This document shows positions 711 to 51,899 of a DNA stretch of 64,000 nucleotides, piece by piece. The DNA is from Eledone cirrhosa (Eukaryota). The number at the start of each line of letters is the position of its first letter. Position 1 is the first letter of the stretch. Location of the stretch: contig OZ024741.1 of NCBI GenBank assembly GCA_964016885.1, forward strand, positions 295,678,001 through 295,742,000. Reading direction: 5' to 3'. The translations under genes were made by a program, and so were the position numbers. The notes under the pieces are model-generated. The model saw only the letters and a program-made list of their open reading frames with translations. It was not told the DNA's origin and did no database searches.

Positions 711-766
711 TACATATATATATATATATATATATATATGTACGCCATATATATATATATATATAT

Positions 767-2290
767 AAGCCATGTATAAAGAAACAATCAGCAAGGTTAG
801 AATTAACAAGGAATATAATGAAGAGTTTAGCGTAAAAGTTGGTGTTCATCAGGGCTCCGTCCTTAGCCTCCTCATATTTATTACCGCCCTCCAAGCTATA
901 ACGGAGGAGTTCAAGACCGGCTGCCCATGGGAACTTCTATACGCAGATGATCTAATGCTCATAAACGAATCAATGGCTGAACTAGAGAAGAAATTCCAAA
1001 CATGGAAGCACGGCCTAGAATCAAAAGGCCTTAAAGTTAACTTGTCTAAGACTAAAGTCCTGATATGTAGGAAGGTGAATAAGGCACTGGTCCCATCTGG
1101 GAAATGGCCATGCTCAGTGTGTAGGAAAGGAGTAGGCAGAAACTCCATTTTATGTCCCAAATGCAAAGTATGCGTGCATAAAAGATGTAGTGGGATCACA
1201 GGTAAGCTAACTAAGAATATAGATTTTATATGTGGCCGGTGCTCTGGCGCAATAAGTAGCAGCAAATGCCCACAGAATACTAGCTTATTCCATTGCCCAG
1301 ATGGTTCTATAGAAATAATGGACACCTTCCGTTACCTGGTTGACAAAACCAGCAGTGGTGGAGGGTGCTCTGAAAGTACTGTAGCTAGAGTCCGAACTGG
1401 ATGGAAAAAGTTCAGAGAGCTTATACCACTATTGGCCGCTAAAGGTTTCTCTCTAAAAATAAAAGGCAGTCTGTATGATGCCTGCATACGAACAGCGATG
1501 TTACATGGCAGTGAGACATGGGCCTTGTGTGCAGAGGATATACGCAGACTGGAGAGGAACGAAGCTTGCATGCTCCGTTGGATGTGTAATAGTAATATAC
1601 GCGAACGGCAAAGCATTAATGAACTAAGTGAGAAATTAGGAATAAGAGGGATCAGATGCTGTTTACTCGAGAGAAGACTACGTTGGTATGGTCACGTGAT
1701 GCGCATGAAAGATGACAGCTGTATAAAAAAGTGCAGGGCGATCAAAACAGACGGAAGCTACAGAGTAGGCAGACCCAGAAAAAACCTGGGACGACTTGAT
1801 AAAATTTGACCTCACACACTTACACCTCTCCAAGACAATGTCACTGGACCGATATCTTTGGCGCTACGCAGTAATACAGAAGACCCGCCTTGCCTAAGTA
1901 CAAAGTGTAACCTACAGTCAGTAGGCACCTCTTAACCAAAATACACCCCCGTCCCAACCCTACGCCCACCGCCATCTACACCACCCCTTTCGATGTAAAG
2001 CTATGTTGGTACCACAACATCCAGTCCTAAATAACTGAGGTCATGTAGGTGTCACGACAAAAAAACACACAGCCCACGCTGTCATGTGGCCGTGCAGGTA
2101 ACACGGTAAAAACCTCCCAGTCGACACTGTAAACGTGGTTGGTGTTAGGAAGGGCATCCAGCCGTAGAAAACCTGCCAGACAGTCCTGAGCAAGACAACC
2201 AATCTTGCCTCAAGGGGGACAATTCCCGTCCAGACCCATGCTAGCGTGGAAAATGGACGTTAAGCGACGATGATGATGATGATGATGATG
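767..2290 (+). mobile_element. 5'-truncated RTE LINE: RT C-half, PHD-like finger, 3' UTR and (GAT)n tail
   Basis: ORF 772-1809 has GVHQGSVLS, YADD, CSVC/CPKC/HKRC/CGRC, LHGSETW and LRWYGHVMR; frameshift near 1785; 3' UTR ends in (GAT)n at 2268-2290; starts directly after (TA)n. Confidence 0.95.
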
Positions 2291-3612: not shown

Positions 3613-4064
3613 CAGTATATTATACGTGTATATAAGCTAATTTTCCAAATTTTTAGATGTATATTCCAAGATTTTCAATCAAAACAATTTACTTATTAAA
3701 GGCCATGCCTTGGTAACATATTTTTAGCATGACTGTTAGTAAGACAACTCCTGGGTGCAAATGTGCAATTCTATTTTAGATGCGCAAAAGATTTGTATTA
3801 AAAGCCTTCAAAAGATTAGTCATAAGTAACAATTAGACAGCACTGAGGATGAACTTCTCTTTAAAGAAGATTCTGAGACTTTCCAAAATTAAATTATAAT
3901 ATTACGAAATATTTTTAGGCATTAAAGAAAGCAACACTGAGGAAGAGTGATATAAGAGTTTTCTTCCATTGCAATAATTTTCTTTTTAATCATGAAACTT
4001 ATGGGGATTTTCCACAAAATTTGTTTAATCACTTTATTTCTTTATTTGCCTGTTTTATATACAA

Positions 4065-4660
4065 CTAGCAGTGGTACCCGGCGTTGCACAGGATAAGGTA
4101 TTTTGGAATGCGAGCCACCAACAGATCTAATCGTAGAAAAAACTGCATGCTTGGACAATATATGAAGAAAATAAACCGAATACTCTGATGGTTGGATAAT
4201 CTTTAAGATTTTCCTCGATGAAGCAGGAAAAATGCAGGTTTTCACCTAATGCGGGCCTTAGGGGATCAAGAAAATGAATTTTTTTTATGTGCATAATATG
4301 CCTTGAAATTTCGGGAAAATCGGCTAGATGTAACACATCAAAAAAGCCCTAAAAAGCTGAAAAAAATGAAGTTTTTCACCTAATGCGGTCCCTCGGCCAT
4401 AAAAAAGTTGGATTTTCTTTGCTTACGGTATGAAGAAGAGACTGACTAATACATAGTTACAATTTCAAGGAAATCGGTCTGACGTAACGCCTCAAAAGAC
4501 CCCTAAAAAGCTGAAAAAACGCAGTTTTTCACCTAATGCGGGCCCTAGGGATCAAAAGATTGAATTTTTTATGTGCATAACACTCCCTGAAACATAAGTA
4601 ATACACATGTAAAGTTTGAAAAAAATCGGTTGGGTACTTCTCAAGTTTTAGGGATTCAAA

Positions 4661-4697
<37 letters not shown>

Positions 4698-4726
4698 ACA
4701 CACATCCTCAGTTTTATATATATAGA
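4065..4726 (-). mobile_element. Non-autonomous Helitron
   Basis: Minus strand starts 5'-TC (TCTATATATATAAAA) and ends CTAG-3' with a subterminal GC hairpin (CCTGTGCAACGCCGGG); inserted between A and T; internal ~140-bp tandem units marked by TTTTCACCTAATGCGG and a (CA)n tract. Confidence 0.75.
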
Positions 4727-5634
4727 TAATGTATGTGATGACAACATTCCTAGTAAAAGAAACTAAAAAAAATTATGTTTAGCCTTTAATATCTTTAAAT
4801 TATATTTTTTTGCAAAAAATTTTCTCTTCAAATTAAGAGTGTGCATTGTATGTGCATATGCATTATACACCGTGAAATTTATAATTAGAGTCAAGGAATT
4901 GGTTGAAGCCAGAAAGTTTCTGCTGAAAACTCTTGTGTAGAGCTGCAAAATGATTAATAGGAGTCACTATCACTGATCTATCCTGGGACATCGATATGGT
5001 TTGTCTTTTAATGGCTTAGTTAGGGGAGGGCAGGGCAGCCTCAATGACCTTCTCTGCAAAGCTTTTGAAATGAATAAGAGGAAAGGGAGAAAGTCAGAAG
5101 TTATCTTCAAACTGGAGAACTGGTTTGTATCATTCTTATGTCTTTCTCTCAGCTTGTTTGTGCTTTGATGTTTATGCATAGATTACTCATTCAGCAGATC
5201 ATACCCAGGGCTGGATTTAATGGAGAGCAAAGGGGGTAAATGTCCCAGGCCCACTGTAGCAGTGAGGGTCACCAGCAACAACTGTAGCAATTTATTTGTA
5301 CCCTTTGCTGGGCTTTTTAATTTGACAATGAGTACTATATTTTTAACAAAAAGTATTTAATGTCCTTACTGTGGCAAAATTCATCAAATTTTCACAACTT
5401 TAGAAAAATCAGGCTGTTATCAAAACAATATTCTAATAAAAAGTATTTGATGCCGCTGTGTAAAGTGGTTGTGCTGGTATCGCAAAAACAATGCACCCAG
5501 TAAACACTCTAAAGTAGTTATGTTAGGAAGGGCATCAACCATAGGAATCATGCCAAATATGTAATGTATGGCAAGATGAGGTCGTCGTCGTCGTCGTCGT
5601 CCCCCCCCCCCCCCCGATATGTCTTCTTGCCTGC

Positions 5635-5900
5635 TGAAGGTGCATGGCCTAATGGTTAGGATGCAATCATAATGTCATCGGTTTGAAATCTACATTGTGT
5701 TCTTGAGCAAAACACTTTATTTCACTTTGCTTCAGTACACTCAGCTGAGATGCATACTAGAAGTAGCTGAGGAGTTACATCTGTAATGGACAGGCATCCT
5801 ATCCAGAGAGAGTCTTGTACTCTTGGTTGTTTAGTGCCAAGGAAATCAGAGAATAAGCACCGGCCTGATGAGCCTTCAACTTAGAACAGACTTTAACTTT
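5635..5900 (+). mobile_element. Decayed tRNA-derived CORE-type SINE
   Basis: A-box-like TGGCCTAATGG and CORE-like CTTGAGCAAAACACTTTATTTCAC; similar to 23422-23560 and 46960-47250. Confidence 0.6.
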
Positions 5901-6427
5901 CTTTCCTGCTAAGTAAAGTTTACTTTGAGGCCTGTTAATTTTCACCTTTGCTCCCACATTTGGATATTCTTCTCTAAATATGCAACAGATTTCACCATGA
6001 AAGCTATGTTGTCAGCATATAGTTCTCATAGGGAGCCAATCATAAATTCCTACGTTTATGAACTATGTTTTAAAGCCATTTTTCTTAGGGGTTAATTTAG
6101 TGAACCCCATGAAAGGCTTCATACTCACCAAGGGGTCCTTTTTGATATAATGTTTTACAGCAAGATGCACTCCCTGCCACCAATCACTTTAGTTAGTTGC
6201 CTGTTACAACGTGTAGGGATACACTGTACCTATATGAAACCAGATGCAGACACACACACGATGTGTGTGTGTGTGTGTCTGCATCTGTGTGTGTTTGAAT
6301 ATATATATATATAAATGTATACATATCCAGGGAGTGTAACACGGAGTTACTGTAGGTTCACCCAGGTGAGCACTCAATGTTTAGGTTCACGCCAGTGGCG
6401 AGGTATAGAGCTACACAGAGTGTAATA

Positions 6428-7318: not shown

Positions 7319-7945
<627 letters not shown>

Positions 7946-7946
<1 letters not shown>

Positions 7947-9279: not shown

Positions 9280-9720
9280 ATAATACAGTATATAGAGAAG
9301 AAAACACAAAAAGGGTTTATATTTTCATTTACAAGGGGTAGAGAACCACTATAGTGAAGGATATAAGGTCTACGAAAAGTGGAGAAAATACATAATAATT
9401 AAGAGGTAAAATTAAAATGTAAAACACCCACCTTTATAACTATACACACCAGTGTGTATAGTTATAAACACCATAATAATTAAGAGGTAAAATTAAAATG
9501 TAAAACACCCACCTTTATAACTATACACACTGGTGTGTATAGTTATAAAGGTGGGTGTTTTACATTTTAATTTTACCTCTTAATTATTATGTATTTTCTC
9601 CACTATAGTGGTTCTCTACCCCTTGTAAATGAAAATATAAACCCTTTTTGTGTTTTCTCTACCCCTTGTAAATGAAAATATAAACCCTTTTTGTGTTTTC
9701 TTCTCTATATACTGTATTAT
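9280..9720. repeat. Nested fold-back palindrome with internal duplications
   Basis: Outer arms 9280-9350 / 9602-9720; centres ACACAC-ca-GTGTGT (9450) and ACACAC-tg-GTGTGT (9531); direct duplications inside; starts at (TA)n. Confidence 0.85.
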
Positions 9721-14730: not shown

Positions 14731-15115
14731 GAATTGGAGAAGGAAAACTACATATGTGAAAAACGGGCAACAATTTGAGATGAAATGAAATATGTGGTGG
14801 CTTTGATTCTAGTTTCTTATAAGACAGGAAGTTGATAGAGAAAGAAAGGGAGGGAAAGAAGAAGGAGATAGGGAGAGTGTGGTGAGATTAGATTGACTAA
14901 TACACATACACTTATTATATATATATATATACATATATATACATATACATACATACATATATATACATATATATATATATTAGAAAGTGAGGGTTTTTTA
15001 CAAAATGAAAAATAACCAAGGTGTCCTACACAAGTGAAAGTATAAAGAAAAAAAGATGAAATCGAAAATGCAACTGGAGTCTTATTTTTTTAAAAATATA
15101 TATATTTATTTGGTT

Positions 15116-15153
15116 CCTTTACCGGTTTCGCAGTTCTTCTGTGTTTTCAAAAG
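15116..15153 (-). ncRNA. Minimal hammerhead motif, U3-A8 covariant
   Basis: CTT-TTGAAAA-CACAG(AAGAA)CTGC-GAAAC-CG-GTA-AAGG. Confidence 0.6.
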
Positions 15154-15221
15154 TAGAGTTGAGATGGAGGGTCTGTGGTTTTTCTTACATGAAAAACCAC
15201 AGACCCTCCATCTCAATTCTA

Positions 15222-15258
15222 CTTTTGAAAAGCAGAAGAACTGCGGAACTGGTAAAGG
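15222..15258 (+). ncRNA. Degenerate hammerhead motif, U3-A8 covariant
   Basis: CTT-TTGAAAA-GCAG(AAGAA)CTGC-GGAAC-TG-GTA-AAGG; GAAA core mutated to GGAA. Confidence 0.45.
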
Positions 15259-15338
15259 AACCAAATAAATATATATATATTTTTTTAAATAAGACTCCAG
15301 TTGCATTTTCGATTTCATCTTTTTTTCTTTATATATAT

Positions 15339-15972: not shown

Positions 15973-16007
<35 letters not shown>

Positions 16008-16117
16008 TAATTACAGGTGGGCATGATCCCACCCTTGCAAGCAGGGAAGAGCGGACGTAAAATGATGATATATATATATATACTAATTGCAGGTGGGCAT
16101 GATATATATATATATAT
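15828..16117. repeat. Tandem array of CTAATTACAGGTGGGCATGA-(TA)n units with an embedded RTE 3' tail
   Basis: About seven copies seen; RTE tail at 16028-16070; another copy at 20449-20478. Confidence 0.85.
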
Positions 16118-19100
16118 ATCATCATCATCGTTTAACGTCTATCTTCCATGCTAGCATGAGTTTAGATGGGAATTGTTTCACTTGAGGCAAGATTGGTTGT
16201 CTCGCTCATATAGGACTGTCTGGCTTGATTTCTATGGCTGGATGCCCTTCCTAACACCAACCACGTTTACAGTGTGGACTGGGAGGTTTTTACCGTGTTA
16301 CCTGCACGACCACATTACAGCGTGGGCTGTGTGTTTTGTTTTGTCGTGACACCTACACGACTCATTTATTTAGGACTGGATGTTGTGGTACCTACATAAC
16401 TTTACAGAGAAAGGAGTGGTGTTGATGGAGGTGGGGGAGTTGGGGTAGTGGGATGGGGGTGTATTTTTGGTTAAGAGGTGCCTACTGACTGTAGGTTTCG
16501 CTTTGTACTTAGGCAAGGGGGGGTTTCTGTATTACTGCGTAGCGCCAAAGATCTCGGTCCAGTGACATTGTGTTAGAGGGGTGTAAGAGTGTAAGGTCGG
16601 AATTTATCAAATTGTCCCAGGTTTTTCTGGGTCTACCTACTCGGCAACTTCTGTCAATTTTGATCGCCCTGCACTTTTTTATACAGCTGTCACCTTTCAT
16701 GCGCATCACGTGACCATACCAACGTAGTCTTCTCTCGAGTAAACAACATCTGATCCCTCTTATTTCTAATTTCTCACTTAGTTCATTTATGCTTTGCCGT
16801 TCACGTATATTACTATTACACATCCAGCAGAGCATGCATGCTTCGTTCCTCTCCAGTCTGCACAGATCCTCTGCACAAAAGGCCCATGTCTCACTGCCAT
16901 GTAACATAGCTGTTCATATGCAGGCATCATACAGTCTGCCTTTCATTTTTAGAGAGAAACCTTTAGCAGCCAATAGTGGTATAAGCTCTCTGAACTTTTT
17001 CCATCCCGTTCTGACTCTGGCTACTGTACTTTCTAAGCACCCTCCACCACTGCTGATTTTGTCACCCAGGTAACGGAAGGTGTCCACTATTTCTATAGAA
17101 CCATCTGGGCTATAGAAGGAGCTAGTATCCTGTAGGCACTTGCTACTTATTGCACCTGAGCAGCGGCCACATATAAAATCTACTTTCTTAGATAGCTTAC
17201 CTGTGATCCCACTACATCTTTTATGCACCTATACTTTGCATTTGGGACATGAAATGGAATTTCTGCCTACTCCTTTCCTACACACTGAGTATGGCCATTT
17301 CCCAAAGAGGACCTGTGCCCTATTTTCCTTCCTACATACTAGAACTTTAGTTTTAGACAAGTTAACTTTAACGCCTTTTGATTCTAAGCCATGCTTCCAT
17401 GTTTGGAATTTCTTCTCTAGTTCAGCCATCGATTCAGCTATGAATGTTAGATCATCTTCATATAGAAGTTCCCATGGGCAGCCGGTCTTGAACTCCTCTG
17501 TTGTAGCCTGAAGGGTAATAATAAATAGGAGGGGGCTAAGGACAGAGCCCTGATGAACACCAACTGTTACGCTAAATTCTTCACTATATTCGTTGTTAAT
17601 TCTAACCTTGCTGACTGTTTCTTTATACAAGCCATTCATCAACCCCTAGTTTTCTAAAGGCCCACCAGATAATGGCAGACTCTGTCAAATGCTTTCTCCA
17701 AGTCAACAAAAGCTAAGTATAGGGGTTTACTTTTAGCTAGGTACTTCTCCTGTAGTTGTCGTACAAGGAAAAGGTGGTACTTTTACCTGACACAAACCCA
17801 AACTGCATTTCGTCTAGATCAATTTGCTCTCTGATTAGTTGTGCTATAACTTTTTGTGACCTTCATGACCTGGTCAATTAATTAAAGCCTCTATAGTTTC
17901 TTCTATCTAAGGCATCTCCTTTACCCTTGTAGCAGTTAATGATGATGCTGCTACACCAGTCATTTGGTATGACCCCGTTCTGTATGACTTGGTTTACTAT
18001 CCGGGTGACCATAGTGTGTCCCACTGTTCCAGATGCTTTCAGCATTTCAGCAACTATTTCCGAAGGCCCAGCTGCCTTGCCTGTCTCCATATCTTTGATT
18101 GCCTTACTTATTATACTACCTTCAACTTGCACTGCTGGTCCCTTTATTGGATCGATGTGGGGCAGACTATCTTTTTCCCATTTATTCTCCTCATTTAGTA
18201 GCCTCTCATAGTGACACTTCAAAGCTACCTTCTTATCAGCGTCAGTGATGGCAAGTACGCCATCATCATTAAGGACACACTTCTCGCCGACAATATCACG
18301 GTTTTCCTTGATACATTGCCTAGCAATCCTGAACACCTCACGTTTTTGGTCCTCGCATTGTAGAACATGTTTGAACTTTCTTTCCTCTGCTTCCCTTCTT
18401 ACAAAGTACACTTGTCTCCTAGCTTCCCTCCTGGCCACTTGATAGTGTTCTCTACTTCCCCCATCCCGCCATACTTTCCAAGCCTGCTTTTTGGCCTTGA
18501 TTGACTCCTCCACCTTATTGTTCCACCACCACGTTACTCTCCTCCTGCCTATAGGTCTGCTCCAGCCACAGATTTCATCTGTTGCCTTCAGCAGGTTCAC
18601 TTTCAAGAATTGCCACTGTTCCTCTATATTGTATGTCATTAATTGCTCTTCCTTACTGTCGAAAGCATCATGTAATATGCTTTTAAATTTGTTACTGGCT
18701 GTGGGGTCCTTTAACTTCCATATTCTTCTCCTTAGGGTAGTCCTCCTCTGTTGTCGAGTACGTCTCGTCCTGACTATGAGGCTATGTTGGAGGTGCATTC
18801 TTCATGGGGGGGGGGGTTAGTGTTTACAACAGACACTCTGTTACGTCTTCTGGTAAGGATATAAACTATCTGACTGGTGTGTTCCCCTGATCTATAGGTG
18901 ATCAAGTGATTGTCTCGTTTTTTGAAGTTTGTGTTACAGATAGTTAGGTTATTTGTGTCACAGAATTCCAGGATTCTGGAGCCTTCCTCATTTCTAGAAC
19001 CAAACCCATAGCCTCCATGGATTCCATCATAGCCATCACAATGTTGTCCAACGTGACCATTTAGGTCACCAGCAATAGTAGTCACTGTCGGTTATTTGGG

Positions 19101-20340
19101 AGGTAGTGAGCATTAGCGACTCATAGAATCTGTCTTTTATAATGCCAGGCAGTCCGGATTGGGTGCATACACGGATATTACTGTCACAGTTGTTCTATTT
19201 AGGACAAGTCTTATTTTAATTATTCTGTCGTTCACTCTATTTATGCCTATTACCTTATCTACCCATTTTTCTGCTAACATGATTCCTACTCCACCCAGCC
19301 CATTGTCATTTCCCACCCAGAAAAGTTTATAGCATCGTTTTTTACCCACAATGAATCTAGCAGACCCACCCCTCCACCTTGTCTCTTGAACACAGCAAAC
19401 ATCAACATCCTTACGTTCAAGCATCTCTACAACCTCGTTAGAGCGACCTTTTAAAGAGCCTACATTCATGGTACCAACTCTGAAGTTTTGGATTGCATTT
19501 GGTGGGTGGGAAGGATGAGGCGCAGGGAGTGGTGAGGGAGATGGGGTTATGTTAGCCTTCCGCGGCCGAAATAAAGAGGAGTCCTTGCATTCTCGTCCGG
19601 CAATATGAGGTGAATTTATCTTTATCTTTGACATTGTCATTGAGTGTCCAGATTCTTCAGACTCTCCAGAATTCTATAGTCCATCTAGCATATCAAAAGC
19701 AACGAGGTCTAAACTTAAGAAGTGATAGCTGAGGCGGGGGTTTTGTGAAAGAGATTGGTAAGAGAAACATATTATAAGCCGCTGAATTATGATTGGACCA
19801 AATAATAATGGTGGCGAGTGGGGCGGGGGGAGGGATCTGGGGGAGTTAGCGAGAAGGCTCGAGAAGGTTATTTTATAATATAATCCTAGAAATTCGGCCA
19901 TAATTAAACGAGCATATAACAGTAATCAGAATTTAAATACAAGAAGAAGATTGTTTTGAAGGTCTGACAGAATTATCGAATAACATTGAAAAGATTGGAT
20001 TCTAAGTTAAACGGACGATATAATACTGATAGGTAAATGGACTAGGAAAAACATGGAGAGACAAGAAAATAGGGTGAAATACATTACATTTCTCAAAATC
20101 AAGCATTTGGCCAAGATAAGGGATCGACAAACTCTGAGATTCGTAACTAACAACAGGTTTATTTTATATTTGCGGAGAGAGGAGAGAGGGAGGGGTGAGC
20201 GAACCCGCAGGCATATATACGATATATGAGGGGGACAGAGAAGGGAGCGAGAAGGTTCAAGAAGGTTATTTTATAATATAATCCTAGAAATTCGGCCATA
20301 ATTAAATGAGCATATAACAGTAATCAGAGTTTAAATACTA
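16118..20340 (-). mobile_element. Near full-length RTE LINE, pseudogenised
   Basis: APE ([24 protein letters not shown]) 18800-19640 and RT/PHD/C-terminus 16509-18798, broken by frameshifts and stops; YEDD in place of YADD; (CAT)n tail at 16118; ~700-bp 5' UTR. Confidence 0.95.
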
Positions 20341-20388: not shown

Positions 20389-20571
20389 AATTTGTATTGG
20401 TGTAAAATGTTGGTGATGTTGAACATGTTAAGGAAATTATAAAGGATACTAATTACAGGTGGGCATCATATATATAGATAGATATATATAGAGAGAGAGA
20501 GATATGTATATAGATATATATATGTGTATATATATATATATTTTAAAAAAATAATAATTTAAAAAAAAATA

Positions 20572-22935
20572 ATAATTAAACAAGCAGATAAAGGGGGTGC
20601 AGTTGTTATAATGGATGCTGAATACTACAAGGATTTGGTTGAGGAACAACTGAAAGACACAACATTCTATCATGAAATATCGTCAAATATAGACCACAAC
20701 ATCATGAAGAAGATCAACAACCTGGCTTCAAAATACCACAACTCACTTACTAATAAGGAAAGAGACTACATCACCAATTTTGACTCAAAACCCAGCAACC
20801 TGTATGGCCTACCGAAAGTTCATAAGTCAAAAGAAATACAACTGGCAGTAAGAGAACAAAACAGTGAGTACATTAAATTACTACACCCAAAAGACTTAAA
20901 ACTTAGACCTATTATAGCTGGTCCAACATGCCCCACCCACCGTCTAAGCAAGTTTGTTGACATTATTTTAAAACCACTATGTATTCACATACCCAGTTTC
21001 ATCCGGGATGATATTGACTTCCTGGCCCATCTTCCCAAAACCACGGAAACGAATTCACTTCTACTTAGTTTTGACGTGGTAAGCCTTTACACCAACATTG
21101 CACATGATTTAGGAATAAATGCGGTTAAATACTGGTTGGAAAAACATAGAGAAGTGATTCCCATCAGATTCACAGCCCCATTTATATTAGATGCAGTTAA
21201 ACTTATTCTGGAAAACAACACTTTCTTCTTCAATGGAAAGAATTACATCCAAATTAGAGGCACAGCGATGGGAACGAAGTTTGCTCCTGTTTACGCGAAC
21301 TCTGTAATGGGATACTTAGAACAACAACTCTACCAAGAAATAGAGGAAAAATATAGTACTGACTTTAGAAAGTACATTGAAAAATCTTGGAAGAGATACC
21401 TTGACGACTGTTTCATCATCTGGACAGAATCTCTAGATACTCTGGATGAGTTAAATATCCTCCTGAATAACCTACACCCATCTCTTCAATTCACAAAAGA
21501 GATGAGTAGTACCAAATTACCATTCCTAGATATAATGATAATAAAAAACGACACCACCATTACCACGGATATATATTATAAACACACAGACACCCATCAA
21601 TATCTGAATTTTAAGTCGTGCCATCCACCTCATACAAAACGCAACATCCCATACTGCCTAGCCAGAAGAATTTGTACCATTGTACGAATACCAGGTACAA
21701 ACGCCTAACAGAACTAAGAGAATTTTTGCTCAAACAAAAATACCCATCTCTACTTATAGAAAATGGCATACAGCAGACTATAAAAATACCTATACAACAA
21801 CTTAGGACAACCCAAGGAAGAAGAAACCAAGAACTGGTCATACCATTTATAATGACACACAACCCATGTCACCAGAATATCTTCAACACTGCCAAAGCAA
21901 ACCTACCGATCATTGCTCAAAGTAATGAATTAAAAGGCTTAATCACAGATCGATCTTTGACTCTTAGTAAAAGACAGCCGAAAAATTTGAAGCAATTACT
22001 AACAAAAGCAAAGTTTGACCTTAACAACAAAGACCAATCATTCACTGTATCTAAATGCAATGATAGTCGATGTGGCACATGTCGATCCATACACGCCTGT
22101 CAATATATGAAAACAAAAACTGGAAAAATATTCCCAAATGCAAATATGAACTGCAAAAGCAGAAATCTAATTTACTGCATTAAATGCCCAAATTGTGAAG
22201 AACTATATGTCGGTCAAACTGGAAATGCACTATCGGAACGTGCACGGGTACACTGACAGCAAATCAGAGACCCAAATGTCCGTCAGATACCCCTAAGTAT
22301 CATGTGGTCAGGGAATATTTATAATATTCCCATTCTACAAATTACACAGCCCAAGTGAAATCAAGAGAAAAATCAAAGAAAAGAATGTTATTGATAAATT
22401 CAAACCCAAGCTAAATGAACAATAATAATGGGGTATTCTACTATCACTATGACTACGACCACTAACAACAACAACAATAATAATAATAATAAAAGTGATG
22501 TTGATGGTGATGATTACTAGAAAATGCTATTTTCATCATTTCTAAAAATAGCAAAACAATCGATGCTTTGGATAGGGTCAATTAGTAGTCGTTAGACATG
22601 CTCAACCAACCGTGACGCCTAAACCAATCAGCTTTGGTAATCCAGTGAAACTACACACCAATTGGTCGAAATACAGTTTGCAAGCTTTAGCATTCTGGAG
22701 CCACTTTTCACTGTATATAAGGCACAAAATTTACCCATCTCATTACAGTTGAAAATTGCAAACTTGACTGTCACCACATATTGTGAACCTGAAGATTGCG
22801 AAAGCATGAAAGTACTTGTTCAATTAACACTTAACATTTAATATTCTACCATACTATTTCATTTTAATACCATTATAAATTTTAAAGGATTGTAAATAAA
22901 ACGAGTAAATCAGACAAAGTTGGAATTCCTTTTAT
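20572..22935 (+). mobile_element. Penelope-like element (RT + Zn finger + GIY-YIG + pLTR), 5'-truncated and frameshifted
   Basis: IIKQADKGG, YGLPKVHK, LRPII, SFDVVSLYTNI, GTAMG, RYLDD, LPFLD; KCNDSRCGTC and LIYCIKCPNCEELYVGQT; frameshift ~21690, TGA at 22254; TATA-like box ~22714, AATAAA ~22895; ends at (TA)n. Confidence 0.95.
22784..22822 (+). ncRNA. Minimal type-I hammerhead ribozyme in the Penelope pLTR
   Basis: TGAAC-CTGAAGA-T-TGC(GAAA)GCA-T-GAAA-GTAC-TT-GTTCA; 5-bp stem I, GNRA-capped stem II, palindromic AAGTACTT stem III. Confidence 0.85.
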
Positions 22936-22962: not shown

Positions 22963-23206
22963 TCATCATCATCATCATCATCATGTTTAACGTCCGCTTG
23001 CATGGGTTTGGACGGGGCTATTTCCCACTTGAGGCAAGAGTAATTGTCTTGCTCGCATAGGACTGTCTGGCGGGTTTTCTACAGCTGGATGCCCTTCCTA
23101 ACACCAACCACATTTACAGTGTGGGGCTGGGAGGTTTTTACCGTGTTGCCTACACGGCCACATTACAGCGTGGACTGTGTGTTTTTTTTGTCGTGACACC
23201 TACACG
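22963..23206 (-). mobile_element. RTE 3'-UTR fragment with (CAT)n tail
   Basis: Reverse complement of 2045-2290; both ends in (TA)n. Confidence 0.85.
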
Positions 23207-23323
23207 ATCTATATATATATATATTTGTATATATATATATATATTTGTATATATATATATATATATTTGTATATATATATATATTTGTATATATATGTAT
23301 ATATATATATTTGTATATATATG

Positions 23324-23828: not shown

Positions 23829-23955
23829 CCGTCGAAACGGCTTGAGCTCAGCCGTCGGGGTCCTACTCATTCCTATTACCCACTCTACTAATCTAAGTAT
23901 TGAGTACTTTGGTGCGTTATGGTCCACCTGGTTCCTTACCACATTTCCTTCGTTA
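23829..23955 (+). ncRNA. 3' half of a hammerhead motif plus pLTR-like tail within (TA)n
   Basis: GAA-ACGGCT(TGAGCTC)AGCCGT-C-GGGG: 6-bp stem III and GUC triplet; the CUGANGA half is missing. Confidence 0.5.
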
Positions 23956-23983
23956 TATATATATATTTGTATATATATATATT

Positions 23984-24022
<39 letters not shown>

Positions 24023-24136
24023 TTGTATATATATTTGTATATATATGTATATATATATGTTTGTATATATATGTATATATATATATTTGTATATATATGT
24101 GTATATATACAAATATATATATATATACAAATATAT

Positions 24137-24167
<31 letters not shown>

Positions 24168-24212
24168 CAAATATATATATATATACAAATATATATATAT
24201 ATGTATATACAA

Positions 24213-24243
<31 letters not shown>

Positions 24244-24282
24244 TATATATATATATACAAATATATATATATATATATATAT

Positions 24283-24321
<39 letters not shown>

Positions 24322-24545
24322 AATATATATATATATATACAAATATATATATATATATATACAAATATATATACAAATATATATATATATATATATATAT
24401 ACAAATATATATATATATATATATACAAATATATATATATACATATATATACAAATATATATATATACAAATATATACATATATATACAAATATATATAT
24501 ACAAATATATATATACATATATACAAATATATATATACATATATA

Positions 24546-26823
24546 ATGCTTGAACGTAAGGAGGTCGATGTTTGTTGTATTCAAGAGACCAGGTGGAGGG
24601 GTGGGTCTGCTAGGTTCATTGAGGGTAAAAAACGATGTTATAAGCTTTTCTGGGTGGGAAACGACGATGGGCTGGGTGGAGTAGGAATCATGGTAGCAGA
24701 AAAGTGGGCAGATAAGATAATAGACGTAAATAGAGTGAACGACAGAATAATTAAAATACGACTTGTCCTCAATAGAACTACGGTGACAGTAATATCTGCG
24801 TACGCACCCCAATCCGGACTGCCCGGCACTATAAAAGACAGATTCTATGAGACACTGATGCTAACTACCTCCCAAATATCCGACAGTGACTATATAATTA
24901 TCGCAGGCGACCTAAATGGTCACGTTGGACAACATTGTGACGGCTACGACGAAATCCATGGAGGCTATGGGTTTGGTACTAGAAATGAGGAAGGCGCCAG
25001 AATCCTGGAATTCTGTGTTGCAAATAACCTAACTATCTGTAACACTAACTTCAAAAAACGTGACAATCACCTGATCACCTATAGATCCGGGGAACACACA
25101 AGCCAGGTAGATTATATCCTTACCAGAAGACGTGACAGAGTGTCTGTTGTTAACACTAAATCCCTCCCCCATGAAGAATGCACCTCCCAACATAGACTGA
25201 TAATTAGCGACCTCATAGTCAGGACGAGACGTACTCGACAACAGAAGAGGACTATCCTCAGGAGGAAAATATGGAAGCTAAAGGACCCACAGCCAGGAAT
25301 AAATTTTAAAGCATATTACTTGATGCTTTCGACAGTAAGGAAGAACATTTAGAGTCGGACAATATAGAGGGAGAGTGGGAATTTCTGAAAGCAAACCTGC
25401 TGTTGGCGACAGACGAGGTCTGTGGCTGGAGCAGGCCTGTAGGCAGGAGGAGAGTAACATGGTGGTGGAACAGTAAGGTGGAGGGGTCAATTAAGGCCAA
25501 AAAGCAGGCTTGGAAAGTATGGCGGGATGGGGGAAGTAGAGAGGACTATCAAGTGGCCAGGAGGGAAGCTAGGAGACAAGTGTACTTAGCAAGAAGGGAA
25601 GCTGAGGAAAGAAAGTTCAAGCATGTTCTACAACGCGATGACCAAAAACGTGAGGTGTTCAGGATTGCTAGGCAATGCGTCAAGGAAAACCGTGATATTG
25701 TCGGGGAGAAGTGTGTACTAAACGACGATGGCACACTTGCCATCACCGACGCTGATAAGAAGGTAGCTTGGAAGTGTCACTATGAAAGGCTACTAAATGA
25801 GGAGAATAATTGGGAGAAAGGCAGTCTCCCCCATATCGACCCAATAGAGGGACCAGCAGTGTTAGTCGAGGGGAGTATAATAAGTAAGGCAATCAAGGAT
25901 ATGAAGACTGGTAAGGCGGCTGGGCCTTCGGAAATAGTTGCTGAGATGCTGAAGGCATCTGGCACGGTGGGACACACCATGGTCACCCGCATAGTTAACC
26001 AAGTCGTACAGAATGGGGTTGTCCCGAAGGACTGGCATAGCAGCATCATCGTTACCTGTTATAAGGGTAAAGGAGACGCCCTAGATAGGAGTAACTATAG
26101 AGGCATTAAATTAATCGACCAGGTCATGAAGGTCACGGAAAAAGTAATAGCGCAACTAATCAGAGAGAGAATTGACCTAGATGAAATGCAGTTCGGGTTT
26201 GTGTCAGGCAAAAGTACCACAGACGCTCTTTTCATAGTACGACAACTACAGGAGAAGTACCTAGCTAAAGGTAAACCCCTCTACTTAGCTTTTGTCGACT
26301 TGGAGAAAGCCTTCGACAGAGTCCCCCGCTCCATTATCTGGTGGGCTCTTAGAAAACTAGGCGTTGACGAATGGCTTGTGAGGGCTATACAAGCCATGTA
26401 TAAAGAAACAGTCAGCAAGGTTAGAATTAACAACGAATATAGTGAAGAGTTTAGCGTAAAAGTTGGCGTCCATCAGGGCTCTGTTCTCAGTCCACTACTA
26501 TTTATTATTGCCCTTCAGGCTATAACAGAGGAATTCAAGACAGGCTGCCCATGGGAACTCCTATACGCAGACGACCTGACACTCATAGCGGAATCAATGG
26601 CCGAGCTAGAGAAGAAATTCCAAACATGGAAGCACGGCCTAGAGTCAAAAGGACTTAAAATTAACCTGGCTAAGACCAAAGTACTAGTTTGTAGGAAAGA
26701 AAACAAGGCGGCGGTCCCTTCTGGGAAATGGTCGTGCTCGGTGTGTAGGAAAGGCGTAGGTAGAAACTCCATTTTATGTCCTAAATGCAAAGTATGGGTG
26801 CATAAAAGATGTAGTGGGATCAC
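24546..26823 (+). mobile_element. RTE LINE, left arm of giant palindrome (APE + RT, ends in PHD finger)
   Basis: [36 protein letters not shown]; one frameshift ~25285; truncated at HKRCSG. Confidence 0.95.
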
Positions 26824-29138
26824 TACATCTTTTATGCACCCATACTTTGCATTTGGGACATAAAATGGAGTTTTTACCTACGCCTTTCCTACACACTGAG
26901 CATGGCCATTTCCCGGAGGGGACCGGCGCCTTATTTTCTTTCCTACAAACTAGAACTTTAGTCTTAGCCAGGTTAATTTTAAGGCCTTTTGATTCTAGGC
27001 CGTGCTTCCATGTTTGGAATTTCTTCTCTAGCTCGGCCATTGATTCAGCTATGAGCGTTAGATCATCTGCGTATAGGAGTTCCCATGGGCAGCCGGTCTT
27101 GAACTCCTCTGTTATAGCCTGAAGGGCAATAATAAATAGTAGGGGGTTAAGAACAGAGCCCTGATGGACACCAACTTTTACGCTAAACTCTTCACTATAT
27201 TCGTTGTTAATTCTAACCTTGCTGACTGTTTCTTTATACATTGCTTGTATGGCTCTCACAAGCCATTCATCAACACCTAGTTTTCTAAGAGCCCACCAGA
27301 TAATGGAACGGGTTACTCTATCGAAGGCTTTCTCCAAGTCGACAAAAGCTAAGTAGAGGGGTTTACTTTTAGCTAGGTACTTCTCCTGTAGTTGTCGTAC
27401 AATGAAAAGTGTGTCTGTGGTACTTTTGCCTGACACAAACCCGAACTGCATTTCATCTAGATCAATTCTCTCTCTGATTAGTTGTGCTATTACTTTTTCC
27501 GTGACCTTCATGACCTGGTCGATTAATTTAATGCCTCTATAGTTACTCCTATCTAGGGCGTCTCCTTTACCCTTGTAACAGTTAACGATGATGCTGCTAT
27601 GCCAGTCCTTCGGAACAACCCCATTCTGTATGACTTGGTTTACTATCCGGGTGACCATGGTGTGTCCCACCGTACCGGAGGCTTTCAGCATCTCAGCAAC
27701 TATTTCCGAGTCCCAGCCGCCTTAACCATCTTCATATCTTTGATTGCCTTACTTATTATACTACCTTCGACTAACACTGCTGGTCCCTCTATTGGGTCGA
27801 TGTGGGGGAGACTGTCTTACTCCCATTTATTCTCCTCATTTAGTAGCCTTTCGTAGTGACACTTCCAAGCTACCTTCTTATCAGCGTCAGTGATGGCAAG
27901 TACGCCATCATCGTTAAGTACACACTTCTCCCCGACAATATCACAGTTTTCCTTGACACATTGCCTAGCAGTCCTGAACACCTCACGTTTTTGGTCCTCG
28001 CGTTGTAGAACATGCTTGAACTTTCTTTCCTCTGCTTCCTTTCTTGCGAAGTACACTTGTCTCCTAGCTTCCCTCCTGGCCACTTGATAGTCTTCTCTAC
28101 TTCCCCCATCCCGCCATGCTTTCCAAGCCTGCTTTTTGGCCTTGATTGACCCCTCCACCTTACTGTTCCACCACCATGTTACTCTCCTCCTGCCTATAGG
28201 CCTGCTCCAGCCACAGACTCCGTCTGCCGCCATCAGCAGGTTCACTTTCAAGAATTGCCACTGTTCCTCTATATTGTATGTCATTAATTGCTCTTCCTTA
28301 CTGTCGAAAGCATCAAGTAATATGCTTTGAAATTTATTTCTGGCTGTGGGATCCTTTAGCTTCCATATTTTTCTCCTGGGGATAGTCCTCTTCTGCTGTC
28401 TAGTACGTCTCGTCCTGACTATGAGGTCGCTAATTATCAGTCTATGTTGGGAGGTGCATTCTTCATGGGGAGGGATTTAGTGTTTACAACAGACACTCTG
28501 TCACGTCTTCTGGTAAGGATATAATCTACCTGGCTGGTATGTTCTCCTGATCTGTAGGTGATCAAGTGATTGTCTCGTTTTTTGAAGTTAGTGTTATAGA
28601 TAGTTAGGTTGTTTGTATCACAGAATTCCAGGATCTGGAGCCTTCCTCGTTTCTAGTACCAAACCCATAGCCTCCGTGGATTCCGTCATAGCTGTCACAA
28701 TGTTGTCCAACGTGACCATTTAGGTCGCCAGCAATAATTATATAGTCACTGTCGGTTATTTGGGAGGTAGTGAGCATCAGTGTCTCATAGAATCTGTCTT
28801 TTATAGCGCCAGGCAGTCCGGATTGGGGCGCGTATGCAGATATTACTGTCACAGTAGTTCTGTTTAGAACAAGTCTTATTTTAATTATTCTGTCATTCAC
28901 TCTATTTACATCTATTATCTTATCCACCCATTTTTCTGCTAACATGATTCCTACCCCACCTATCCCATTGTCATTCCCCACCCAGAAAAGCTTATAGCAA
29001 CGTTTTTTACCCACAATGAATCTAGCAGACCTGCCCCTCCACCTAGTCTCTTGGATACAGCAAACATCAACCTCCTTACGCTCAAGCATTTCTACAACCT
29101 CGTTAGAGCGGCCTTTTAAGGTGCCTACGTTCATGGTA
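26821..29138 (-). mobile_element. RTE LINE, right arm of giant palindrome
   Basis: Same motifs on the minus strand (ORFs 26774-27691, 27817-28284, 28604-29233); frameshifts and a stop; truncated at HKRCS. Confidence 0.95.
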
Positions 29139-29199
29139 CATATATATATATATACACGGAATATATATATATATATATATACACATATATATATATACA

Positions 29200-31000
29200 C
29201 GGAACACCCGCCAATCGCCTTAGAGTCGAACAAAGAACTATCTTCATCTTACAGACCCACACTCCCCCCGGCCTGAACTCCCCACCCTCATTCCTTTAGC
29301 CTTCGACCGCCCCCCTCACCCCACACTTATCCCCCACTAACACCACTAACACACCCCTCCTTTTCACCGCCCACCCCACAACTAACAATACTAACACCTC
29401 CACTCCACTCCACCCCTCATCCAACCACCCTTCCCCAACTAACATACTAACATCCCTCCCTTCTTCTCCTCCTCCCCCTCCTTATTACACGCACACACCC
29501 ACCGGCACATATATACATGCGCTCACACTATACACACACCCTACTACCACCACTAACCCTCACCCCCACACCTCCATCCCACCACCCCGCAACTAACCTC
29601 ACTAACACCCCCTGACCCCAAGCACACGAACACACGCACCCACTTACACCACCCACCTCACACGCAACTAACATCACTAACACCCCCCAACCCCACGCAC
29701 ACGTACCCACACACCCTCGTACACCACCAACTCTACACACCCTACCACCACTAACCCCCACTCACACCTGCATTCAACCCCTCCCCCACCTCCCGTATAC
29801 TAACACCCACCCCTTCATCAAACTACACACACACCAGTACACCACACTCCCTCCATAGAACTACACACACCCTTCTCTCCCCCGCTCCACCCACACCCTC
29901 GCTCCACACTCACTCATCCCACTAACACCTCTACTAATACACACACACACACACTCTCCTCACTCCAACTTTCACACCTACCCATCCTCGCCCCTTTACC
30001 ATTCCACCGACTGCTGCTATGCCCTCTGACCACCTCCCAGCACAAACAGACACACAGCACTCCCACTGCTTTACCACTTCCTGTTGCGCACGCACCCCAC
30101 ATCTCTCCTCTTCCGACCATCTCTTCATGGAATAATCGTATGCTGAACTTGACCACCACATAATCCACTAAAGACCATAGGATTTTACCAACTTTTCAAC
30201 CATCCTCTTACGGAACCACCTATATAACTCACCCACACACACACACACCAAAAATAATTTTTTCTCCACACGCCACCTACACCCACAACACGCTTAAACC
30301 CCACACACACGTGCTTTCCACCACATATTTACACCCTCAGCCTCCTGATTCCTCTCCCCCCACCCCTCTATCCACACACGCACAGACACTCCGATCTACA
30401 CCCCCCCCCCACACACACACACACCTCTTCCTGAACATGCAACCCCGTTCTTCCCCCAACCCTTACTTTCACATCCACACACACACACACACACGTACAC
30501 CTACACACACACACCACCTTCAGCCCTCCCCGCTCGGACACCCCGTCTCCCTCTCCCCACTCCACCCTCCACCACCCCTACACACCCCACACCCTTCCAC
30601 CACCTGTTTTACCCCCCTTTTAATTTCAGTTTATTTTGATCATGCTTTTATATTTAAATTTATTTCCTTCCTTGTATTTTGATCATGCTTTATTTTTATT
30701 TTTATTTTTATTTTTATTTTTATTTTTATTTTTATTTTTATTTTTATTTTTATTTTTATTTTTATTTTTATTTTTATTTTTATTTTTATTTTTAATTTCA
30801 TTCGCACCGTTTCCTTTCGCTATATGTCTCTCCACCACTCCCCTACACACCCTTTGAACTCTGTTCCCACACACTTCTCACCTGAGGAAGGGCTTATGCC
30901 CGAAACGTCGTTCCCCACCACCACCCCACTCTCGAGAGCGTGAAATTAATAAACATTCGTTGTACTGCCTCTCTGTTTTGTTCCTGTTCAAATTTTTCCA
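29200..31000 (+). mobile_element. C/A-rich low-complexity insertion ending in a hammerhead-bearing pLTR
   Basis: Strongly G-poor plus strand, (TTTTTA)n at ~30690-30793, hammerhead at 30879, AATAAA ~30948, bounded by (TA)n. Confidence 0.6.
30879..30911 (+). ncRNA. Minimal hammerhead ribozyme motif
   Basis: AC-CTGAGGA-A-GGGC(TTAT)GCCC-GAAAC-GTC-GT; ACGT palindrome, GUC triplet, short stem I. Confidence 0.7.
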
Positions 31001-48355: not shown

Positions 48356-48614
48356 TCTTCAATCCTACTGACACCAGCACAGCAGTATTACCTGGCAGAA
48401 GTGACAAAGAAAATGACTTTGCCTGCATTTTCCACTTTGTAGCCCACACTCACCAAGGCCAAATCATGTGACATGTCATAACACCATACAAATCTCTCAA
48501 ACACTTTGGATAATTCCACAATGCTGCTATGTATGTATGAGTATATATATGTATGTATATGAACATATGTATGCATGCATGTGTGAGTGTGTATATATAT
48601 ATATACGTATATAT

Positions 48615-49072
48615 AATTGAAAAAGTGAAGAATAACATGGTCAACAGTACAAAAAAAGGGATTTATTTACAGTCTGACAATTGTTTCACTGATTAAGTTG
48701 TCTAAAAATTGCTGAACACTAGAAGCAGTGCCACTCAAGTTATCTCCGATGATCTAGTTAAGCTAACATCGTATTTGAAATTGAGTGGCACTGCTTCTAA
48801 TGTTCAGCAATTTTTAGACAACTTAATCAGTGAAACAATTGTCAGACTGTAAATAAAACCCTTTTTTTGTACTGTACTGTTGACCATGTTATTCTTCACT
48901 TTTTCAATTTTATTACTCCAAGATAAACTTACACAGGAATACAAGTGAAATCATAAACTCGCCATCTACGTAAACCTCTTGTTGAGTCAAACAACGGCGT
49001 ACGCTAAAACTATCCATAATAAGAAGTATTCACAACCTCTAACTGGATTACTTATAATGATATTTAGTTATC

Positions 49073-50735: not shown

Positions 50736-51380
50736 TATCTATTTATCTATCTCTTCCTCGAATCAAATCGATCTGTCTGTTTGTCAGTTAAACTACCTAC
50801 CCATCTATCCACCTACCAACTTACACATACATATATATATATATATATACACATACACCCACACTGTAAGGTGGTCGTGTAAGAGTCACAACAAAAAGCA
50901 CCTAGCACACATTTTAAATGTGGTTGGCGTTAGGAAGGGCATCCAACCGTAGAAACCTAGCCAAAAACCATAGAAACCTAGCCAAAAACCATAGAAACCT
51001 AGCCATAGTTCTGTATGAGCAAGACGCAGCCACCTGCACCAACTTGCCTCATATTGGACAATCCATCTAACGCATGCTAGCATGGAAAATAGACATTAAA
51101 TGATGATGATAATGATGATGTATATAGAGATCCCTATTCTGCTGACTTTAACAAATTTATATATATTTATATCCCTCACCCTCTGCCCATCTATCTGTCT
51201 GTCTGTCTGTCTGTCTGTCTGTCAATTTATATACTTATACCTAGCTATTTATCTATTTATTACATCAATATCGCTAGAGATAAATATATTGACAGATAAA
51301 TGGTGGGATCAATGGCAATATAGACAGATGATTTCATTGATAGAGGACTGGAGGGTAGGGTAAGAGTTGTAGGGAGGGGT

Positions 51381-51718
51381 GGATAGAGAGTGGGGAAGGG
51401 AGATAAAATTGGAGGGACAGATTGCTGGAAGGTAGAGTAGGAGTTGGTGTGAGGGATAGATAGAGAGTGGGGAAGGGAGATAAAATTGGAGGGACAGATT
51501 GCTGGAAGGTAGAGTAGGAGTTGGTGTGAGGGATAGATAGAGAGTGGGGAAGGGAGATAAAATTGGCGGGACAGATTGCTGGAAGGTAGAGTAGGAGTTG
51601 GTGTGAGGGATAGATAGAGAGTGGGAAAGGGAGATAAAATTGGAGGGACAGATTGCTGGAAGGTAGAGTAGGAGTTGGTGTGAGGGATAGATAGAGAATG
51701 GGGAAGGGAGATAAAATT
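51381..51718. repeat. 77-bp purine-rich minisatellite, about 4.4 near-identical copies
   Basis: TAGAGA(G)TGGG recurs at 51384, 51461, 51538, 51615 and 51692. Confidence 0.95.
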
Positions 51719-51899
51719 TCAGAGATAGATGGCTGAATGGTAAGATAGGAATAGCAGGAAGGGTTGGTTAGGGGTTGGGGAATGAAGGTATAATTTGAGT
51801 GACAGATGTGAAGAGAGAAGGATGAACACAATATTTAAACTGAGATGTAAATTGATGCACAGACAGATGGATAAAGAGTCTTTTGACAACTGTTTATCT

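What the first reader, a model, noticed from the sequence alone, without database searches (positions are those of the whole stretch)
24546..29138. 4.6-kb tail-to-tail RTE palindrome built from two different subfamily copies with a 4-nt loop
Two RTE halves meet at GTAGTG-ggat-CACTAC (26811-26826), using the element's own GTG-GGAT-CAC mini-hairpin as 3-nt microhomology. Both lose everything 3' of the PHD HKRC motif, and both distal ends stop within ~50 bp of the same element position at (TA)n tracts. The arms are not identical. The right arm shares diagnostic residues with the independent 17878-18798 copy (MTYNIEEQWQFLKVNLL, RPIG, VYF, DGVLA, EENKWE) that the left arm lacks. It is therefore unlikely to be a simple duplication or read fold-back. 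Inferred options: symmetric collapse of two inverted insertions, or dual priming on two RNAs at a TA-tract break, like the small fold-backs nearby. If transcribed it would form a ~2.3-kb dsRNA, a candidate siRNA or ADAR substrate against the RTE family.
Basis: partly seen in the sequence, partly recalled or inferred. Interest (0 to 1): 0.75.

Follow-up and report, generated by a model that had tools for sequence, protein, structure and literature searches.

The report
Two retrotransposon copies fused into palindrome
A very young and an older copy of the same jumping gene are joined back to back into a 4.6-kb mirror-image stretch of DNA, likely a one-off repair scar in which a broken strand folded back on a tiny hairpin and then paired with the neighbouring copy; whether it is transcribed or does anything is untested.

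Summary
The palindrome is real in the assembly: arms 24545-26816 and 26821-29090, 92.9% identical, 4-nt loop, junction unique in the 3-Gb genome. The arms are two separate insertions. The left is a very young subfamily (0.22-0.44% from 28 copies; 118/118 diagnostic sites); the right is older (at least 2.07% from any copy; 120/124 sites). Dual priming at a TA break is rejected: 5' ends face the flanks, and the arms differ in age. Best reading: fold-back at GTG-GGAT-CAC, then annealing to the inverted neighbour, deleting both 3' ends, as in yeast foldback inversions. Tail-to-tail precursors are common (950 sites, control 10), and 1 of 3 blind probes found a short strand switch at another micro-hairpin. 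A polarity flip in the left TA tract keeps an inversion of a tandem pair alive. No spanning reads, promoter or host gene were available. The scan's notes showed no earlier report of this build. Known kind of rearrangement, unusual natural product.

The parts
24545..26823 (+). Left arm: 5'-truncated copy of the very young RTE-type subfamily, element positions 445-2724; endonuclease, RT and half of the PHD finger; one 1-bp deletion near 25280
   Evidence: 99.6-99.8% to 28 genomic copies; 118/118 young-type diagnostic sites, 5 substitutions from the group majority; Pfam
26811..26826 (.). Fold-back junction GTAGTG-GGAT-CACTAC; loop 26817-26820 is the element's natural sequence on the + strand; CAC 26821-26823 is shared by both arms
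   Evidence: unique in genome; native hairpin is 3 bp, -1.3 kcal/mol
26821..29139 (-). Right arm: 5'-truncated copy of an older subfamily, element positions 396-2717; three 1-bp deletions relative to the left arm; 29091-29139 has no partner
   Evidence: nearest copies 2.07-3.1% away; 120/124 older-type sites, 39 differences from group majority
28233..28315 (-). 83-nt tract identical to the neighbouring copy at 17-19 kb; diagnostic core 28243-28284; likely gene conversion from that copy
   Evidence: exact 30-mer at only 2 places in the genome, 18616-18645 and 28261-28290
23954..24545 (.). Interrupted TA tract at the left arm's 5' end; interruptions read TTTG up to ~24090 and CAAA from 24110, a polarity flip
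29140..29197 (.). TA tract at the right arm's 5' end, with repeats of the flanking CACGGA motif
16007..19700 (-). Neighbouring near-full-length copy of a third, older lineage (W17), 9645 bp from the right arm in the same orientation; likely donor of the patch
23829..23953 (.). Left flank: 125-bp piece of a different high-copy repeat that ends at the TA tract (Penelope-like by recall and by earlier scan notes, not tested)
29198..29420 (.). Right flank: another high-copy repeat cut off at the TA tract; not contiguous with the left flank in other copies

Best explanation
The palindrome joins a very young and an older RTE-type copy in register at the element's own GTG-GGAT-CAC micro-hairpin, and it likely arose as a repair deletion from a tail-to-tail pair: a broken or stalled strand in the young copy likely folded back on the 3-bp hairpin, was likely extended a short way, and likely annealed to the oppositely oriented older copy, losing both 3' ends and the spacer. 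Shown: two insertions of different age, pure subfamily sequence on each side, in-register joint with 3-nt microhomology. Inferred: the precursor pair, the break, the order of steps. A polymerase switching onto the displaced partner strand inside the long stem gives the same product and cannot be told apart. The product is most likely an inert, retrotransposition-dead scar.
For: Arms fall in separate clades and are not mosaics of each other; differences are mostly synonymous, 94 synonymous to 47 replacement codons, 104 of 156 at third positions. Two resected ends of a tail-to-tail pair both expose the sense strand, so a joint 7 nt out of register needs a strand reversal (inference); 3 nt or more of microhomology has 4.6% chance. 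Precursors are common: 950 (TGA)n-TA-(TCA)n sites against 10 in the control, and 1 of 41 such sites in 40 fetched loci is an intact young/old pair with 899-bp arms at 92.2% (L085). 1 of 3 blind probes at other micro-hairpins found an in-register strand switch, at TTCCA-AACA-TGGAA, with a 24-nt inverted insert and a ~910-nt deletion. The conversion patch shows that the right arm has exchanged sequence with a neighbour. Yeast precedent: foldback at short-loop hairpins resolved by single-strand annealing with an oppositely oriented homolog, 53% of inversions in sae2 mutants (PMC7467729, passages and section 15); 5-34-bp foldback inserts at breaks (PMC11724301, abstract and section 15).
Against: The precursor allele was not seen. 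The hairpin is weak (3 bp, -1.3 kcal/mol) and one of 201 such sites in the element; in yeast the shortest stems were 4 bp and short stems were used mainly next to the break, so the break must have been near the junction, not in the TA spacer. The left TA tract flips polarity next to the left arm, which this model does not predict; flips were seen in 3 of 21 scorable tracts. The distal ends lie only 49 nt apart in element coordinates, unexplained here. No second long two-copy palindrome turned up in 3 probes or in 1.5 Mb examined, where the 4 other internal tail-to-tail joints are 695-1842 nt out of register. No left-arm alleles cross to the right side, so self-templated extension left no trace.
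Confidence: 0.5

Rival explanations
1. Inversion from a tandem pair. The young copy first lay on the minus strand, in the same direction as the older one, inside the TTTG-type TA tract. Either one template-switch event (break in the older copy, invasion of the direct neighbour, slip onto its displaced sense strand at CAC, copying backwards through its 5' part and the TA tract, rejoining in TA) or a flip between self-complementary TA tracts followed by collapse produced the present structure.
For: The 435 bp of tract next to the left arm read CAAA while the rest of this tract and two tracts further left read TTTG; 5 of 5 ordinary insertions with both flanks scorable keep the same polarity on both sides; the minus-strand fragment at 22964-23210 sits in the same kind of tract; the right arm already took a patch from a direct neighbour. 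Inter-strand switches that invert a fragment are the commonest short-range type in human-chimp data (PMC5453318, passages).
Against: Polarity flips occur in 3 of 21 tracts anyway, and in some ordinary 3' tracts. Direct repeats normally resolve to one collinear chimera (recalled). Needs two switches or two events.
Confidence: 0.24
2. Reverse transcription primed by the resident copy. Young-subfamily RNA paired with the older copy; the older copy's broken sense strand, ending GTG, primed on the RNA's CAC in register; the cDNA ran 2.27 kb and was joined to a TA tract, with loss of the older copy's 3' end. The left arm never had a 3' end in DNA.
For: On the minus strand the sequence reads older sense strand, then exactly the cDNA of the young element through the loop. 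The left arm is of the youngest subfamily and ends like a normal 5' truncation. It needs no rare pair of long neighbours and could account for the two distal ends lying 49 nt apart. L1 can extend existing DNA ends and make foldback junctions, one with two tail-to-tail RT products (PMC11702581, passages).
Against: RNA paired with a resident copy would more simply extend the antisense strand and convert it in the same direction (inference). The priming site is not TA-rich, unlike this family's normal 3' junctions. With thousands of resident targets more such joints would be expected; 0 of 3 probes found a two-copy one. The left arm carries 5 substitutions, as much as or more than 28 sibling copies (0-5), which dates nothing.
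Confidence: 0.14
3. Assembly or library artefact: two loci, or the two stems of an intact pair, were joined at 26820.
For: No junction-spanning read or contig could be shown. Long palindromes are hard to sequence (recalled).
Against: Read fold-back gives identical arms; these differ at 156 sites that sort by subfamily. No gap within 42 kb. A natural joint of the same grammar exists elsewhere in the genome. Repeat-induced misjoins are collinear, not inverted at 3 nt (inference).
Confidence: 0.06
4. Dual priming on two RNAs at one TA-tract break, both arms made at once.
For: Both distal ends abut TA tracts at similar element positions. Insertions from two RNAs are known for L1.
Against: Primed ends should carry the 3' part of the element; here the 5' parts face the flanks. 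The right arm has 39 differences from its group against 5 for the left and three frameshifts, and no source copy closer than 2.07% was found among 40 scored candidates.
Confidence: 0.02

Closest known systems
Yeast foldback inversions resolved by single-strand annealing with an oppositely oriented homolog (Li, Putnam, Kolodner 2020, PMC7467729; Al-Zain et al. 2023, PMC10622511; passages seen)
   Same: Short native inverted repeat at the centre, short loop, exit into a homologous sequence in opposite orientation, loss of the sequence between.
   Different: Natural, heritable, in an animal; 3-bp stem (shortest reported there 4 bp); the homolog is a second copy of the same retroelement entered within 34 nt of the fold, so the palindrome's two arms come from two insertions and nothing is duplicated.
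Inverted Alu pair exclusions (Cook et al. 2011, PMC3215922; passages seen)
   Same: Deletion inside an inverted pair of retroelements of different subfamilies; partial loss of one or both elements.
   Different: Those deletions remove the inverted pair's instability; this one removes the spacer in register and leaves a 2.27-kb near-perfect palindrome.
Short templated foldback insertions and four-point template switches (PMC11724301, abstract and section 15; PMC5453318, passages)
   Same: Strand switch at a micro-hairpin; the second joint found here (L227) fits this directly.
   Different: Those involve tens of bases of one locus; here 2.3 kb from a second element.
Mu killer of maize (PMC3440606; abstract start only)
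   Same: A ~4-kb inverted structure of transposon coding sequence that would give a long hairpin RNA.
   Different: Mu killer is a duplication of one element, read through from a flanking gene, and shown to silence. Here two copies, no promoter or host gene identified, no transcript or silencing shown.
RTE-clade LINEs such as RTE-2_OV of Octopus vulgaris (PMC9115989; passages seen)
   Same: Single ORF of ~1100 aa with endonuclease, RT and a zinc finger; microsatellite at the 3' end; recent activity.
   Different: Sequence identity to RTE-2_OV and clade placement by tree were not tested.

Membership tests
RTE-clade LINE (parent element) | Single long ORF with APE endonuclease and RT, no ORF1 | tested here: met
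   L004 holds one 1076-aa ORF starting ~190 nt after the element's 5' end; Pfam Exo_endo_phos, RVT_1, PHD
RTE-clade LINE (parent element) | 3' end of short tandem repeats, variable 5' truncation | tested here: met
   (GAT)n tail and truncated 5' ends across the fetched copies
RTE-clade LINE (parent element) | RT groups with the RTE clade in a tree of reference LINEs | not tested
Foldback inversion resolved by annealing with an inverted homolog | Centre is a short inverted repeat already present in the parental sequence | tested here: met
   GTG-GGAT-CAC is native to both subfamilies
Foldback inversion resolved by annealing with an inverted homolog | Exit into an oppositely oriented homologous sequence | tested here: met
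   Right arm is older-subfamily from the first diagnostic site, 35 nt from the loop
Foldback inversion resolved by annealing with an inverted homolog | A self-templated inverted duplication next to the loop | tested here: inconclusive
   The 34-bp perfect stem is identical in both subfamilies; no young-type allele lies beyond it
Foldback inversion resolved by annealing with an inverted homolog | Parental allele with the inverted homolog in place | not testable with these tools
   No second haplotype or informative run was available
Twin- or dual-primed TPRT insertion | Element 3' ends (primed ends) at the flanks, joint between cDNA ends | tested here: not met
   5' ends face the flanks; both 3' ends are missing
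Twin- or dual-primed TPRT insertion | Both segments equally young | tested here: not met
   5 against 39 differences from own group
Self fold-back duplication or read fold-back | Arms are sisters | tested here: not met
   Separate clades; 118/118 and 120/124 diagnostic sites
Killer-type hairpin silencer (Mu killer) | Long inverted structure able to form dsRNA | tested here: met
   Central 600 nt fold as one hairpin, -533.9 kcal/mol, z -56.6; expected of any palindrome
Killer-type hairpin silencer (Mu killer) | Read-through transcription from a promoter | tested here: inconclusive
   Both arms lack the 5' UTR; 6 of 126 scanned ORFs from 464 kb hit Pfam, all transposon-type; short exons would be missed
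Killer-type hairpin silencer (Mu killer) | Small RNAs and silencing in trans | not testable with these tools
   No small-RNA data were on hand

The most novel reading that the evidence does not exclude
A resident old LINE copy can act as the primer for reverse transcription of the currently active subfamily's RNA, in register and in reverse, so that retrotransposition itself writes a multi-kilobase hairpin locus against the active element in one step; if read through, such loci would be animal counterparts of Mu killer.
Probability: 0.12. Interest if true: 0.75.

Novelty: new variant of a known kind. Interest (0 to 1): 0.36.

Why it matters
As a scar it is a rare natural, inherited example of foldback-plus-annealing repair, a pathway worked out mainly in yeast mutants and tumours, and the subfamily markers let each base be assigned to its template. 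It shows that deletion in an inverted retroelement pair can build a long palindrome rather than destroy it. With 950 or more tail-to-tail sites in this genome, the frequency of such joints is directly countable. Function is unproven: only if a host transcript runs through it would it be a source of long dsRNA matching the active subfamily. The patch also warns that 'diagnostic' residues shared between neighbouring copies can be local conversion.

Tried and rejected
Public runs: no RNA holder listed, no evidence either way. The best holders share 0.64-0.66 of the words. Laying 4 runs on 26760-27360 listed no piece across the junction, and at 27320 two of them carried only the other letter; laid on a whole young copy, the runs carried the other letter at several young-type sites. 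They seem to lack this locus and perhaps this subfamily, so they cannot test the junction; most joints were not shown (331 hidden), so no catalogue of strand changes came of it. Whole-palindrome DNA search returned only single copies among 40 of 11582 candidates. Reconstruction of the empty site failed: the two flanks are different repeats. Arm-to-arm conversion: not seen, 4 of 124 sites, within the 0-5 of other older copies. ADAR signature in the arms: none, 0 of 5 left-arm changes and 3 of 39 right-arm changes are A>G. Daughter copies of the junction: none. Direct-to-inverted pair ratio in 664 kb: swamped by satellites, uninformative. Host gene: 126 of 188 candidate ORFs scanned, only transposon-type hits. 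One search timed out and ended in an error after printing its alignment. Literature: searches listed no natural two-subfamily LINE palindrome; (5 of 6 terms) returned 0 papers; the library lacks most subscription journals. No supplements were read; unseen ones, including those of bioRxiv preprints, could hold similar junctions. Earlier-finding word search returned 0.
Full report
Observation. Self-comparison shows one long inverted repeat, 24545-26816 against 26821-29090, 92.9% identical with 4 nt between the arms. The centre reads GTAGTG-GGAT-CACTAC. Against a full-length genomic copy (L004, 3818 nt) the left arm covers positions 445-2724 on the + strand and the right arm 396-2717 on the - strand, overlapping by CAC. 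The junction pattern occurs once in the 2,996-Mb genome. In 464 kb around it, no other non-simple fold-back found by a perfect-core scan has arms above 107 bp. The window has no N and the nearest gap is ~42 kb before it.

The element. An intact copy has a single 1076-aa ORF with endonuclease, RT and PHD domains, a 5' end ~395 nt before the right arm's start and a (GAT)n tail ~1080 nt (young) or up to ~1185 nt (older) beyond the junction, usually followed by TA. That fits the RTE clade by architecture (PMC9115989, passages); I did not place it in a tree. Truncated 5' ends at TA tracts are ordinary for the family, so the two distal ends need no special mechanism, although their 49-nt offset is closer than usual.

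Two insertions of different age. The left arm is 0.22-0.44% from 28 copies; the right arm's nearest copies are 2.07-3.1% away (each search scored 40 candidates, of 3121 and 9391). In a tree of 60 sequences (loci L001, L002, L032 are the locus itself; rearranged L055 and L060 were left out) the arms fall in separate clades. At 124 columns that separate the 28 young from 12 older copies, the left arm is young at 118 of 118 covered and the right arm older at 120 of 124; the other older copies show 0-5 young states. Differences between the arms are mostly synonymous (94 to 47 codons). The left arm has 5 substitutions from its group, the right 39, of which about 10 lie in one patch. So the older copy was there first, and neither self-duplication nor read fold-back can explain the structure.

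The shared 'diagnostic'. The right arm is only 89.2% identical to the 17-19-kb copy. But over 83 nt (28233-28315) the two are identical, the longest such run; the longest between that copy and six other older copies is 46-61 nt. The core carries alleles absent from all 19 closest relatives of that copy and from 22 other copies, and the exact 30-mer occurs at just these two places in the genome, with 3 one-mismatch relatives in more distant lineages. The patch has the neighbour's lineage states, so it likely moved from the neighbour, 9645 bp away and in the same orientation, into the right arm. Its date relative to the junction is unknown.

Mechanism. Dual priming fails on geometry and age. For the rest, the key fact is register: two copies cut within 7 nt of the same element position. 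Ends resected from a tail-to-tail pair are both sense strands and cannot anneal by homology, so one strand must reverse (inference). The element's GTG-GGAT-CAC offers that; 3 nt or more of microhomology arises by chance in 4.6% of near-symmetric joints, though the hairpin is weak and one of 201. After a fold-back the new 3' end is antisense and can pair with the older copy's sense strand. This is the pathway described in yeast, where foldbacks were most often resolved by single-strand annealing with an oppositely oriented homolog (PMC7467729, passages and section 15; PMC10622511, passages), and very short foldback synthesis at breaks is documented (PMC11724301, abstract and section 15). That paper set also cuts against me: short stems were used mainly next to the break and the shortest were 4 bp. 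The innermost 34 bp are the same in both subfamilies, so self-templated synthesis is neither shown nor excluded.

Precursors and parallels. (TGA)n-TA-(TCA)n tail-to-tail sites number 950 against 10 in the control. Of 41 sites in 40 fetched loci, one is an intact young/older pair with 899-bp arms at 92.2%; the others have inverted matches of at most 355 bp or none. In 1.5 Mb examined there are 5 internal tail-to-tail joints; the other 4 are 695-1842 nt out of register, one with 6 nt of microhomology. Three blind genome-wide probes at other micro-hairpins found 1, 0 and 0 sites. The hit (G000:C2:93672570) sits exactly on the predicted TTCCA-AACA-TGGAA hairpin and is a copy with a 24-nt inverted insert and a ~910-nt deletion, its two pieces matching related copies. 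So in-register strand switches at micro-hairpins recur in this family, but the long two-copy form was seen once.

Evidence that does not fit. The TA tract left of the young arm switches from TTTG to CAAA interruptions at ~24100, while two tracts further left read TTTG. Ordinary insertions keep polarity across the element in 5 of 5 scorable cases; flips occur in 3 of 21 tracts. This is what an inversion of the young arm plus 435 bp of tract would leave, so a tandem precursor that was inverted gets 0.24. An earlier scan note on a block reversed between AT runs (e1-9530084) prompted this check. RT priming by the older copy's sense strand on young RNA gives the same junction letters and gets 0.14; L1 can extend existing ends and make foldbacks (PMC11702581, passages), but RNA paired to a resident copy would more simply convert it in the same direction.

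Function. The central 600 nt fold into one hairpin, as any palindrome would. Both arms lack the 5' UTR and the 3' end, and both carry frameshifts, so the locus cannot retrotranspose by itself; the junction has no daughter copies. No host exon was recognised: 6 of 126 scanned ORFs (of 188 candidates) hit Pfam, all transposon-type, a weak test. Neither arm shows an A>G excess. The functional model, Mu killer, needs read-through from a gene (PMC3440606, abstract start); nothing here shows that.

Verdict. Real in the assembly, built from two insertions, most likely a repair scar of a known class with an unusual outcome: it creates rather than removes a long palindrome, the reverse of inverted-pair exclusion (PMC3215922, passages). 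Spanning reads are lacking, so a small artefact risk stays. Seven literature searches (listings only unless stated) showed no natural two-subfamily LINE palindrome, in a library that lacks most subscription journals. Interest 0.36.

Noticed in passing
window 28233-28315 and 18616-18645: Local gene-conversion patch between two RTE copies 9645 bp apart; exact 30-mer only at these two places in the genome. The patch motif itself resembles more distant lineages (L223-L225), so the donor copy may be a mosaic too.
   Followed up: yes
L227:4590-5404 (G000:C2:93672570): RTE copy with a strand switch exactly at the TTCCA-AACA-TGGAA micro-hairpin, a 24-nt inverted insert and a ~910-nt internal deletion; a 2.8-kb young-like copy lies head to head 860 bp away.
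   Followed up: partly
L085:618-3220 and 3735-5906: An out-of-register internal tail-to-tail joint (element 2941 against 1290, 6-nt microhomology) right beside an intact young/older tail-to-tail pair with 899-bp arms.
   Followed up: partly
window 23954-24545; also 142679 and 203777 in window-based coordinates of the stitched region: Interrupted TA tracts whose interruptions flip strand polarity part-way, 3 of 21 scored.
   Followed up: partly
L004:1060-4850: Public runs labelled organism A carry other letters at many sites of the young subfamily, which suggests that this burst is confined to the lineage or population of the assembly.
   Followed up: no
window 690-786, 7826-7946, 9280-9720, 15041-15333, 48611-48913, 60688-60909: Several small fold-back palindromes, some centred on TA runs; not related in build to the RTE palindrome as far as examined.
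   Followed up: no
window 20563-22256: Degenerate RT plus GIY-YIG frames (weak Pfam hits), Penelope-type.
   Followed up: partly
G000:C8:33544618-33546975: Young copy with a short inverted 5' segment, as from twin priming.
   Followed up: no
L047, L031, L059, L046: Copies with mixed young and older diagnostic states: intermediate or recombinant lineages.
   Followed up: no
stitched region, window-based -41949 to -12351 and 209972 to 238535: Two satellite arrays (about 37/74-bp and 70-bp units); the second has a ~980-bp inverted block at 232998-233977.
   Followed up: no
window 51262-51877: 77-bp tandem array, about 5-8 copies.
   Followed up: no
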